From the NCBI RefSeq assembly GCF_030013205.1, contig NZ_CP122648.1: a stretch of DNA of 64,000 nucleotides, one strand, 5' to 3'. The translations under genes were made by a program, and so were the position numbers. Shown piece by piece: positions 15,046 through 15,860 of this stretch; position 1 is the stretch's first letter; the number at the start of each line of letters is the position of its first letter. The DNA is from Escherichia coli. GTDB taxonomy: Bacteria; Pseudomonadota; Gammaproteobacteria; Enterobacterales; Enterobacteriaceae. The notes beneath the pieces are model-generated. The model was given only the letters and a program-made list of their open reading frames with translations. It did no database searches and was not told where the DNA came from.

Positions 15046-15573
15046 ATGTTTATGAGCAAGGCAGAATATGCCAAACACAAAGGCGTAAGCCGCCAGACAG
15101 TTTACGACTGGATCGAGAAAGGCGAAGTGGTCATGTCCGGTAAAAAAATCGATGTGGAAGCGACAGAGCAGCGGAACAGCCCACCAGCACAGGGAAAAGA
15201 CACAGTTTCTGAAATGTGGCCAGAGAGAACGCTGGAAATGACGTGGGGCGAGTTCTGGAAAGCAGTTAAGGCCAGAGACGGTAAAATCCCTGCACCAGTA
15301 ACGGACAATGACATACAGCAGCGTGTACAGGATGCAGCCGGGGAACTATGCTGTGAAGTGCAATTTCTTGATGATGGTGCTATCTGCCTTGAGGATTATG
15401 CTGGGCAATATTACTTTGAGCAGTATGATTTTCGGGAAAATGCCAGGCTGGCAATTCGTATGCTGCGTTGTGAGCTCTGCTATGTTGCAGGTGATTGTCC
15501 CGATGAGCTGGATAACTGGAGTGAAGCCGGACTAAACGCCCTGGCTGAGTGGGAAAAATCAGGCCATCAATGA
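15046..15573 (+). CDS. HTH protein resembling small-terminase/Rpp-type packaging proteins (175 aa)
   Basis: N-terminal SKAEYAKHKGVSRQTVYDWIEKGEV helix-turn-helix; GAGGGGA SD; followed by a dense repeat array. Confidence 0.55.
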   Translation: MFMSKAEYAKHKGVSRQTVYDWIEKGEVVMSGKKIDVEATEQRNSPPAQGKDTVSEMWPERTLEMTWGEFWKAVKARDGKIPAPVTDNDIQQRVQDAAGELCCEVQFLDDGAICLEDYAGQYYFEQYDFRENARLAIRMLRCELCYVAGDCPDELDNWSEAGLNALAEWEKSGHQ

Positions 15574-15578
15574 CCTCA

Positions 15579-15860
15579 AAAAGTGTCAAGTTGAGCAGCT
15601 TGCCAGGTTGACACTTTACACTCTGAACGCGAAAAAGTGTCAACCTCGCTGTAAGCCCCGCCATTACTGGCCTTTCGCCAGATTTACCACGTCAAAAAGC
15701 CGAAAAAATCGCGAAAAGTGTCAAGTTGCCATGCTTAGAAATGCTAAGGTTTGATAAGGTTTTTCGCGAAAAAGTGTCAAGTGTGTCAACCTGCGATGTT
15801 AAGATTTGTTAAGGTCTTAAGCCGGAAAGTGTCAACCAGCCCCTAAGATTTCCTAAGGTG
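15579..15860. repeat. Repeat array: at least 6 direct and 1 inverted copy of (CGCGAAA)AAGTGTCAA(C/G), plus 3 copies of TAAG(R)TTTNNTAAGGT; candidate packaging (cos/pac) site
   Basis: Copies at ~15579, 15608 (inverted), 15634, 15714, 15769, 15783 and 15826; second family at ~15743, 15797 and 15838. Confidence 0.55.

What the first reader, a model, noticed from the sequence alone, without database searches (positions are those of the whole stretch)
15046..15860. Rpp/TerS-like HTH gene followed by a dense repeat array, candidate packaging site
The 175-aa protein has an N-terminal HTH like small-terminase DNA-binding domains. It is followed within 280 bp by at least six direct and one inverted copy of (CGCGAAA)AAGTGTCAA(C/G) plus three copies of TAAG(R)TTTNNTAAGGT. 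This mirrors the cos-type PICI strategy of a TerS-like protein that redirects helper terminase to an island-borne site.
Basis: partly seen in the sequence, partly recalled or inferred. Interest (0 to 1): 0.6.

Follow-up and report, generated by a model that had tools for sequence, protein, structure and literature searches.

The report
Satellite island packaging gene and site
At the right end of a 14.7-kb phage-satellite island inserted in E. coli comM, a conserved DNA-binding protein gene is followed by an array of its probable binding sites, interleaved with short copies of a sequence from a helper-type phage's small-terminase gene; this is most likely the signal that gets the island packaged into that phage's capsids.

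Summary
All six AAGTGTCAA copies in the 64-kb window lie in 15581-15835 (0.54 expected), and TAAGRTTTNNTAAGGT occurs three times (0 expected). The locus is the right end of a PICI-type satellite (window 2204-16916, in comM). The 175-aa gene and array sit exactly where EcCICFT073 carries cos1-rppA-cos2. The protein is not an Rpp or TerS homolog: only its N-terminal winged HTH resembles Xis, Nu1, RppC and BldC, and its C-terminal alpha/beta domain matches nothing characterised. There is no lambda or P2 cos. Across 9 loci in 6 genera the gene is always followed by 4-9 aAAAGTGT(C/A)AAsy boxes, although integrases and replicases differ. Each replicase has its own, different iterons, so the array is not an origin. 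The island also carries copies of Rac-SA53/pPE4-type phage scaffold, tail-chaperone and tape-measure genes. The TAAG units match a stretch inside those phages' terS genes (15-26 nt identical), and the CGCGAAAA flanks match repeats in a terS linker. Best reading (about 0.5): a satellite packaging-specificity protein plus a composite pac-like site. It is a functional analogue of Rpp/cosB for a different, probably headful, helper. No binding or packaging was shown.

The parts
15046..15573 (+). 175-aa two-domain protein: winged HTH (residues 1-43), disordered linker (44-60), alpha/beta C-terminal domain (61-170). Candidate packaging specifier.
15580..15590 (+). box 1, AAAGTGTCAAG
15606..15617 (-). 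box 2 (inverted), AAAGTGTCAACC on the minus strand; a degenerate AGTGTAAA overlaps at 15615-15622
15628..15645 (+). box 3 with flank, CGCGAAAAAGTGTCAACC
15703..15725 (+). box 4 with flank, AAAAAATCGCGAAAAGTGTCAAG. The flank AAAAAATCGCGAAAA is identical to a unit repeated three times in the terS linker of phage contig L040.
15733..15768 (+). terS-like unit, GCTTAGAAATGCTAAGGTTTGATAAGGTTTTTCGCG (TAAGRT half-sites every 10 bp). Matches the DNA that encodes the TerS motif (L/M)(I/L)RN(D/A)KVF in Rac-SA53/pPE4-type phages.
   Evidence: 15-nt identity to L017 and L018 terS, 17 nt to L040, 22 of 23 nt to L050. ORF 15608-15754 ends ...AMLRNAKV*.
15761..15791 (+). boxes 5 and 5b with flank, TTTTTCGCGAAAAAGTGTCAAGTGTGTCAACC
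15800..15815 (+). TAAG unit 2, TAAGATTTGTTAAGGT
15826..15837 (+). box 6, AAAGTGTCAACC
15844..15864 (+). TAAG unit 3, TAAGATTTCCTAAGGT, plus degenerate box GGTGTAAA; overlaps the ribosome-binding region of the next ORF
15867..16046 (+). 59-aa ORF conserved after the array. It is homologous to the 93-aa ORF that follows cos2 in EcCICFT073. Function unknown.
   Evidence: small ORFs at the same position in L002, L004, L010 and L012
8506..8833 (.). The island's probable replication origin: AAAAGTGGGG iterons and a 38-nt perfect inverted repeat around TATATATA, directly 3' of the RepA-family helicase gene (7095-8507). Listed because it argues that the 15574-15864 array is not the origin.
   Evidence: iterons co-vary with replicase type in other islands
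2194..2203 (.). attL core AATAGCGGAT (the comM 5' part starts at 2032)
16907..16916 (.). attR core AATAGCGGAT; comM resumes here. The array ends about 1 kb inside the island.

Best explanation
The 175-aa protein and the array form the DNA-packaging specificity module of a PICI-type phage satellite. Proposed mechanism, with shown and inferred steps marked. (1) Shown: the module is the last core element of a 14.7-kb int-AlpA-Icd-DUF4222-replicase-ori island, in the slot where EcCICFT073 has cos1-rppA-cos2. (2) Inferred: the invariant N-terminal winged HTH binds the aAAAGTGT(C/A)AAsy boxes. There are 7-9 boxes here, mostly direct with one inverted, and they probably assemble a multi-protein complex on bent DNA, as Nu1, Xis and BldC-type domains do on repeat arrays. 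(3) Shown: the boxes are interleaved with short sequences that match the terS genes of the phage type whose scaffold, tail-chaperone and tape-measure genes the island also copies (Rac-SA53/pPE4-like). These are TAAGAAATGnTAAGGTTTTTCG and, in some phages, the CGCGAAAA, GCGCAAAA or GGGGCAAAA linker repeats. (4) Inferred: those sequences are, or mimic, the helper's pac elements. The variable C-terminal domain contacts the helper TerS or TerL, so the helper terminase starts packaging on satellite concatemers at this composite site. Packaging probably runs rightwards through the accessory-gene hotspot. In effect it works like Rpp plus the PICI cosB, adapted to a non-lambda and probably headful helper. 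It may also divert terminase away from the phage.
Against: There are no binding, packaging or transfer data. The helper phage is only inferred, and its pac site is unknown. The TAAG unit encodes the most conserved TerS peptide motif, so the match could be a relic of a decayed terS rather than a selected site. Contigs L040-L052 were retrieved with the TAAG motif, so that part of the match is circular; only the linker-repeat matches and the L017/L018 matches are independent. The AAAAATCGCGAA-type terS linker is rare in E. coli (1 of 814 terS-bearing genomes). Two genomes that hold both an island and such a prophage have other linker repeats. The Pantoea array lacks a recognisable TAAG unit. The C-terminal domain resembles neither Rpp nor any TerS, and no phage encodes a homolog. 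The HTH fold is equally that of excisionases and regulators.
Confidence: 0.5

Rival explanations
1. The protein is a transcription factor and the array is its operator or enhancer, controlling the downstream small ORF and the accessory (defence) genes or feeding back on the island operon. A variant: the array is a decoy that titrates helper TerS, giving interference only and no role in island packaging.
For: The HTH_17/MerR-like fold is common in regulators. UniRef labels the Pantoea homolog 'Repressor' and RefSeq labels some 'MerR family transcriptional regulator'. The array runs up to the start codon of the 59-aa ORF. The complement of each box contains TTGACA.
Against: Seven to nine sites spread over 300-700 bp is unusual for an operator. 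The consensus scan found no promoter in the array. The downstream cargo differs from island to island while the array is constant. This reading does not explain the terS-derived units or the positional equivalence with rppA/cos.
Confidence: 0.2
2. The TAAG units are non-functional debris of a terS gene the island once carried. The boxes and the protein then have some other role in island biology that cannot be inferred from sequence.
For: The unit is in frame with an ORF ending AMLRNAKV*. It encodes the conserved TerS motif found in many phages.
Against: Only this roughly 20-nt piece survives. It is present in 2-4 copies per array, and its TAAGRT half-sites and 10-bp spacing are kept while the codons between them are not (TAAGATTTGTTAAGGT, TAAGATTTCCTAAGGT). 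It is retained in non-coding arrays of Escherichia, Serratia, Enterobacter and Rouxiella, always next to a box.
Confidence: 0.1
3. The array is a second replication element (a second ori, or a P4 crr-like site) bound by the island replicase or by the HTH protein acting as an initiator.
For: The architecture is iteron-like. The box (AAAAGTGTCAA) and the ori iteron of this island (AAAAGTGGGG) share AAAAGTG. The Pantoea island repeats its ori iteron near the right end.
Against: A canonical iteron plus AT-rich origin already follows the helicase gene. In other islands the ori iterons change with the replicase type while the right-hand boxes do not. The array has no AT-rich unwinding stretch.
Confidence: 0.06
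4. The protein is an excisionase or recombination directionality factor, and the repeats are its sites in the attP arm.
Against: The array ends about 1,040 bp from attR. The integrase-specific arm motifs (CACGTTGT, GGTGTAGT) lie at 16780-16850 and 2240-2345. The same protein and array (98.5% identical DNA) occur with a different integrase and att site (tRNA-Pro), and related ones at tRNA-Thr.
Confidence: 0.05
5. The module is a one-protein partition system: a pSK1 Par-like winged-HTH protein with a repeat centromere, used by the excised episome.
Against: The structural match is weak and there is no coiled-coil or ATPase partner. The elements are chromosomally integrated satellites flanked by att sites; all 191 and 234 matching places in E. 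coli are on chromosomes and none on plasmids.
Confidence: 0.03

Closest known systems
RppA/B/C with the cos1 (cosB) site of E. coli PICI EcCICFT073 (Fillol-Salom 2019, PMC6739421)
   Same: Same kind of island and the same slot: the last core gene before a conserved small ORF and attR. The N-terminal winged HTH has the Nu1/MerR class fold. The adjacent cis site is island-specific. The proposed role, redirecting the helper terminase to island DNA, is the same.
   Different: No sequence homology beyond about 25 HTH residues. The C-terminal domain is alpha/beta, not the alpha4-alpha6 coiled-coil dimerisation domain. There is no lambda-type cosN or cosQ. The sites lie downstream of the gene and number 7-9 rather than a short cosB. 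The inferred helper is Rac-SA53/pPE4-like, not lambda or phi80.
SaPI-encoded small terminase (TerS_S) with the SaPI pac site
   Same: A satellite-encoded DNA-recognition protein that gives headful packaging specificity using the helper's TerL. Accessory genes lie between pac and the island end.
   Different: SaPI TerS is a true Terminase_2 homolog with a ring-forming oligomerisation domain. The 175-aa protein is not; it has no TerS match beyond the HTH.
PLE pac-site mimicry with the packaging specifiers GpsA and GpsB (Boyd and Seed 2024, PMC11417361)
   Same: A satellite carries a short stretch identical to helper packaging-region DNA (14 bp in PLE, 15-26 nt here). It also encodes non-TerS proteins that confer specificity.
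   Different: The proteins and hosts are unrelated. In PLE the helper pac was already mapped and the mimic was shown to be required. Here the helper pac is unmapped and nothing has been tested. Here the mimic is multiplied and interleaved with a second motif.
Lambda Nu1 at the cosB R elements, SPP1 G1P at pacL/pacR, and BldC or Xis filaments on direct repeats
   Same: Small winged-HTH domains bind several repeats spaced in helical register and build a bent nucleoprotein complex that positions another enzyme.
   Different: Those are phage or host proteins acting on their own genomes. Repeat sequence, number and arrangement differ.

Membership tests
PICI (phage-inducible chromosomal island, Gram-negative type) | About 10-20 kb, att-flanked, with int, alpA-type regulator, replicase and adjacent ori in one orientation; no full set of structural or lysis genes | tested here: met
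   10-bp direct repeats at 2194-2203 and 16907-16916 split comM. The window has the integrase, Icd-like, DUF4222, RepA-helicase and iteron ori, but no alpA-type regulator was identified in the window itself; the HTH (AlpA-position) regulator is annotated in the related island L001. The order is the same as in EcCICFT073 and L001.
PICI (phage-inducible chromosomal island, Gram-negative type) | Induction, excision and high-frequency transfer by a specific helper phage | not testable with these tools
   The helper is only inferred, from 54-89% protein identity of island scaffold, chaperone and tape-measure genes to Rac-SA53/pPE4.
Rpp (redirecting phage packaging) proteins | Sequence homology to RppA, RppB or RppC | tested here: not met
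   BLASTP aligns 25 aa of HTH at 40% identity. hhalign probability 26% over 29 columns. phmmer and a family profile against the PDB (which holds RppC, 6hn7) give no hit.
Rpp (redirecting phage packaging) proteins | N-terminal winged HTH that mimics the TerS (Nu1) DNA-binding domain | tested here: met
Rpp (redirecting phage packaging) proteins | C-terminal three-helix coiled-coil dimerisation domain | tested here: not met
Rpp (redirecting phage packaging) proteins | Adjacent island cos site with lambda-like cosQ and cosN and a distinct cosB | tested here: not met
   GGGCGGCGACCT is absent from the island at up to 2 mismatches. It is present twice beside rppA in CFT073.
Rpp (redirecting phage packaging) proteins | Binds helper TerS and blocks phage packaging | not testable with these tools
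   Needs two-hybrid, pull-down or plaque assays.
Small terminase (TerS) | Homology to a TerS family, including the oligomerisation (ring) domain | tested here: not met
   PHROG 57 and 3218 match residues 1-44 only. Pfam gives only weak HTH hits. hhalign against the helper-type TerS finds no similarity. The candidate helper TerS proteins themselves match PHROG 51 at E 1e-36 to 1e-40.
Small terminase (TerS) | Recognition site (pac or cosB) in or next to the gene | tested here: inconclusive
   A conserved repeat array starts 7 nt after the stop codon in the window; in the other loci the first box lies 18-150 nt after the stop. Its role in packaging is untested.
Satellite pac-site mimicry (PLE type) | A short stretch identical to the helper's packaging-site DNA | tested here: inconclusive
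   15-17 nt (window) and 26 nt (Enterobacter arrays) are identical to terS-internal DNA of helper-type phages. Whether that stretch is the phage pac is unknown.
Iteron replication origin | Repeats adjacent to the replicase gene and co-varying with it, flanking an AT-rich stretch | tested here: not met
   A separate element at 8506-8833 has those features. The ori iterons differ by replicase type while the boxes stay constant.
Excisionase / RDF | Sites within the att arm, and co-evolution with the integrase | tested here: not met
   The array lies about 1 kb from attR. A near-identical module occurs with different integrases and att sites.

The most novel reading that the evidence does not exclude
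A previously undescribed class of satellite packaging specifier. A two-domain protein (invariant winged HTH plus a fast-evolving alpha/beta domain found in only about 30 sequence clusters among 1.84 billion representatives) builds a chimeric packaging-initiation site. It binds its own boxes, which are interleaved with multiplied copies of the helper's terS-internal pac elements. This would let Enterobacterales PICIs hijack headful (Rac-SA53/pPE4-type) terminases, and would also reveal where those phages' pac sites lie.
Probability: 0.35. Interest if true: 0.75.

Novelty: new variant of a known kind. Interest (0 to 1): 0.6.

Why it matters
Only one packaging strategy has been worked out for Gram-negative PICIs: Rpp plus cos, for lambda-like helpers. 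Many E. coli PICIs are scored as incomplete because no packaging module can be recognised in them (PMC11773190). This module is present in about 200 of 5,426 complete E. coli genomes, including O104:H4 2011C-3493 and ETEC/STEC strains, and in at least five other genera. It sits just upstream of a hotspot carrying defence genes. If it is the packaging signal, three things follow. It gives a marker for annotating a whole PICI subfamily. It gives a testable route for the spread of their defence and virulence cargo. It also offers a natural example of a composite, mimicry-based pac site that could be reused to make packageable vectors.

Tried and rejected
- **cos sites:** lambda cosN (up to 2 mismatches) and the P2/P4 cos (up to 3 mismatches) are absent from the island.
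- **PDB by sequence:** searches with the protein and with the family profile gave nothing meaningful.
- **Phage collection (50,697 records):** a tblastn of the protein and a blastn of the array found no match.
- **BFVD fold search:** only generic HTH hits.
- **AFDB50 fold search:** only uncharacterised family members, then weak N-terminal Nu1/TerS hits.
- **PADLOC and NCBIfam:** no meaningful hit.
- **Rfam over 14900-17000:** nothing.
- **Promoter and terminator scan:** no promoter in the array.
- **EcCIMP1,** the experimentally mobilised E. coli PICI with a podovirus helper, lacks both the gene and the array, so it gives no functional transfer of knowledge.
- **Resident helper test:** I tried to link the CGCGAAAA flanks to a resident helper. 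The matching terS linker type is rare, and the two genomes that hold both an island and such a prophage have other linker types. That part of the mimicry argument is therefore weak.
- **C-terminal domain profile** against 1.84 billion representatives: only 34 hits. Most are proteins of about 50-200 aa, many of them short or N-terminally truncated; the full-length distant ones examined keep the same HTH-plus-domain architecture. The remaining hits are a few spurious matches to long repetitive proteins. This gave no functional clue.

Full report
**1. Observation**

AAGTGTCAA occurs six times in the 64-kb window, and all six lie within 15581-15835 (five direct, one inverted). The expected count is 0.54, and none of 100 shuffles reaches 6. 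TAAGRTTTNNTAAGGT occurs three times against 0.00 expected. A closer look adds a seventh good box (TGTGTCAACC, 15782-15791), two degenerate boxes, and a fourth, overlapping TAAG unit (TTAGAAATGCTAAGGT, 15735-15750). The TAAGRT half-sites are spaced 10 bp apart.

From 57 copies in 10 loci the box consensus is aAAAGTGT(C/A)AA(C/G)(C/T). In an alignment of six diverged E. coli versions of the array, none of 48 box-core columns varies, against 17 of 101 spacer columns (Fisher p=0.0015). The length differences are whole repeat units.

**2. Context**

The window is E. coli chromosome. comM starts at 2032, is interrupted at 2203, and resumes at 16917. A 10-bp direct repeat, AATAGCGGAT, lies at 2194-2203 and 16907-16916. 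Between the repeats is a 14.7-kb island with these parts, in order:
- integrase (2299-3609);
- a protein with an Icd-like C-terminus;
- a DUF4222 protein;
- a RepA-family helicase (7095-8507);
- an iteron plus AT-rich array (8506-8833);
- ProQ/FinO and PerC proteins;
- four morphogenesis-like genes;
- the 175-aa gene, the array and a 59-aa ORF;
- about 870 bp of non-coding DNA.

This is the gene order of Gram-negative PICIs. An island whose right half is 98.5% identical sits at tRNA-Pro in strain ETEC4079 with a different integrase. About 170-200 of 5,426 complete E. coli genomes carry the module, always on the chromosome.

**3. Positional equivalence with rppA and cos**

In CFT073 I located EcCICFT073. 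The 144-aa RppA gene (L009 32660-33094) is flanked by cos1 (GGGCGGCGACCT, 32561-32572) and an inverted cos2 (33296-33312). After it come a small ORF homologous to the window's 59-aa ORF, a shared non-coding stretch, and the same P' arm motifs. The 175-aa gene and array therefore occupy exactly the packaging slot of the one E. coli PICI whose packaging mechanism is known (PMC6739421, PMC6092414).

**4. The protein**

By sequence there are only weak HTH hits (HTH_17 i-E 0.003; PHROG 57 'terminase small subunit' E 5e-7 over residues 1-42). RppA aligns over only 25 residues, and the hhalign probability is 26%. Nothing in the PDB matches by sequence.

A 39-sequence alignment shows that residues 1-41 are nearly invariant, even in homologs at 32-36% overall identity, while the rest diverges. 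The AlphaFold2 model (pLDDT 89) has a winged HTH (1-43), a disordered linker (44-60) and an alpha/beta domain (61-170).

The C-terminal domain has no convincing structural relative. A profile of it finds only 34 clusters among 1.84 billion representatives; most are proteins of about 50-200 aa, and the full-length distant ones examined keep the same HTH-plus-domain architecture. No phage in the 50,697-record collection encodes a homolog. The protein is therefore neither an Rpp nor a TerS family member. It has the DNA-binding fold those proteins share with excisionases and BldC. Proteins of this class typically bind arrays of repeats.

**5. The array travels with the protein, not with the integrase or the replicase**

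I fetched homolog loci from Pantoea, Serratia, Enterobacter (three), Rouxiella and one unnamed Enterobacterales genome, plus further E. coli islands. In every case the gene is the last core gene of an int-AlpA-...-DUF4222-replicase island. It is followed within 900 bp by 4-9 boxes of the same consensus.

The replicases differ (RepA helicase, D5-type primase, DUF927 primase). Each has its own iterons directly downstream of its gene: AAAAGTGGGG (window), AAAAAGTGAGGA (L001), CGTATCCCGG (L004, L014), TTATCTACCT (L002) and a related unit in L012. This disfavours the 'second origin' reading.

The array ends about 1 kb from attR, and the module is shared by islands with different integrases and att sites. 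This disfavours an excisionase role. Variable accessory genes lie between the array and attR: PARIS-like AAA ATPase plus DUF4435 in O104:H4 2011C-3493, Abi_2, SieB and others. That is the arrangement reported for SaPI cargo downstream of pac (PMC12829572).

**6. A link to a helper phage type and to its terS gene**

The island's 679-aa protein, its 205-aa and 97-aa pair, and its 227-aa and 197-aa ORFs are 54-89% identical to proteins of E. coli phage Rac-SA53 (KU052037) and of 'Actinobacillus' phage pPE4 (PP818812). The phage counterparts are the tape-measure/lytic transglycosylase, the tail chaperone, and the two halves of the DUF2213 scaffold/protease. These phages have a 442-aa TerL and a long TerS (PHROG 51, E 1e-36 to 1e-40).

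I chose these two phages by protein homology, not by motif. In Rac-SA53 the only TAAGR-N5-TAAGRT in 50 kb is ATAAGAAATGATAAGGTTTTTCG inside terS, where it encodes ...LIRNDKVF.... The 15-mer TGATAAGGTTTTTCG is shared by the array and by both phages' terS.

An exact-pattern scan of IMG/VR (TAAGAAATGNTAAGGTTTT) returned 56 contigs. Most hits are terS-like ORFs encoding (L/I)RN(D/A)KV, and two are PICI arrays. One enterobacterial-type terS (L050) shares 26 identical nucleotides with the Enterobacter arrays and 22 of 23 with the window.

The flanks of the boxes also match direct repeats in the linker-coding part of such terS genes:
- AAAAAATCGCGAAAA (window 15703-15717; also in the Serratia array) matches a unit repeated three times in the L040 terS.
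- TGCGCAAAAA (Enterobacter arrays) matches a repeat in the Rac-SA53 terS.
- GGGGCAAAAA matches a unit repeated three times in the L050 terS.

The window array shares 15, 7 and 6 10-mers with the terS of L040, pPE4 and Rac-SA53. Shuffle means are 0.4-0.7, and 0, 0 and 1 of 300 shuffles reach those counts.

Caveats:
- L040-L052 were retrieved with the TAAG motif, so only their linker matches are independent evidence.
- The L040-type linker is rare: 1 of 814 terS-bearing E. coli genomes.
- Two genomes that carry both an island and such a prophage have other linker types.
- The TAAG unit encodes a conserved peptide and could be a relic. Against a pure relic: only this piece survives; it is multiplied; its half-sites and 10-bp spacing are kept while the intervening codons are not; and it is retained next to a box in the arrays of the four named genera, Escherichia, Serratia, Enterobacter and Rouxiella, and of L012.

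**7. Most likely mechanism (confidence about 0.5)**

The module is the island's packaging-specificity device. The invariant HTH binds the boxes. This is inferred from strict co-occurrence, matching conservation and the fold class. The interleaved terS-derived units act as, or mimic, the helper's pac elements. This is inferred by analogy with pac inside terS in P22 (PMC9611059) and with PLE's 14-bp pac mimic plus GpsA/GpsB (PMC11417361). The fast-evolving C-terminal domain engages the helper TerS or TerL (inferred).

The shown steps are the anatomy, conservation, synteny, independence from the ori and att modules, and the sequence matches to terS. Binding, recruitment and packaging are not shown.

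The rivals are:
- a regulator with its operator, or a TerS decoy (0.2);
- a functionless terS relic beside an unrelated regulator (0.1);
- a replication element (0.06);
- an excisionase (0.05);
- a partition system (0.03).

**8. Comparison with known systems, and novelty**

The module works like Rpp with cosB, like SaPI TerS with pac, and like PLE GpsA/GpsB with a pac mimic. It fails the membership tests for Rpp (no homology, a different C-terminal domain, no cosN) and for TerS (no oligomerisation domain, no homology). I rate it a new variant of a known kind: a new protein family and a new composite site architecture for a known satellite strategy.

No paper in the searchable library describes this protein or motif. 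The EcCIMP1 paper notes that many E. coli PICIs lack a recognisable packaging module (PMC11773190), and EcCIMP1 itself lacks this one.

**9. Verdict**

Interest 0.6.

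Noticed in passing
window 10935-14994: The island carries its own copies of helper-type phage morphogenesis genes. The 679-aa tape-measure/lytic transglycosylase has an N-terminal 500 aa 88.6% identical to pPE4 gp56, with a different C-terminal lysozyme-like domain. There is also a tail chaperone with an overlapping 97-aa frame. The phage's 440-aa DUF2213 scaffold/protease gene is split into two ORFs in permuted order: 10935-11528 is the C-part and 11593-12276 the N-part. This suggests remodelling of the capsid or tail.
   Followed up: partly
window 8506-8833: Probable island origin: AAAAGTGGGG iterons and a 38-nt perfect inverted repeat (8564-8601 and 8788-8825) around TATATATA, directly after the RepA-family helicase gene. 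In related islands the iteron sequence changes with the replicase type.
   Followed up: partly
window 3634-3673: Four tandem 10-bp units containing ACAACG lie just downstream of the integrase gene. They are the complement of the CACGTTGT motif repeated in both att arms (about 2240, 2300 and 16784). They may be extra integrase arm-type sites or an autoregulatory element.
   Followed up: no
window 16046-16715: About 670 bp of non-coding DNA after the 59-aa ORF is conserved with the island at tRNA-Pro (L001) and partly with the right end of EcCICFT073 (AACCCGTTGAT...CCCCCATTGGGG). There is no Rfam match. Function unknown.
   Followed up: partly
L014 14787-16743; L010 11609-12598; L077 1463-2008: The stretch between the array and attR is a cargo hotspot. 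It holds an AAA ATPase plus DUF4435 (PARIS-like) pair in E. coli O104:H4 2011C-3493, Abi_2 in an Enterobacter island and SieB in another E. coli island. The island in the window has no cargo there.
   Followed up: partly
L040 7407-7464 (-); L050 about 1590-1650 (-); L017 24806-24850; L018 20840-20900: The terS genes of Rac-SA53/pPE4-type phages have a variable N-terminal HTH followed by a linker whose DNA carries phage-specific direct repeats: AAAAATCGCGAA three times; GGGGCAAAAA three times; GCGCAAAA twice; GTGGAAAC/GTTTCCAC four or five times. These are candidate pac elements inside terS. The pPE4 unit AAAGTGGAAAC differs from the island box AAAGTGTCAAC at 2 of 11 positions.
   Followed up: partly
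L002 5914-6013 and 11250-11375: In the Pantoea stewartii island the ori iteron (TTATCTACC) recurs in inverted orientation near the right end. This is reminiscent of the ori and crr pair of P4.
   Followed up: no
window 15608-15754: A 48-aa ORF across the array ends ...AMLRNAKV*, the conserved TerS peptide motif in frame. The TAAG unit may therefore have originated from a captured terS fragment.
   Followed up: partly
NZ_CP122643.1 (ETEC4079): Some porcine ETEC genomes hold 3-4 places that match this module, so several related islands can sit in one chromosome.
   Followed up: no
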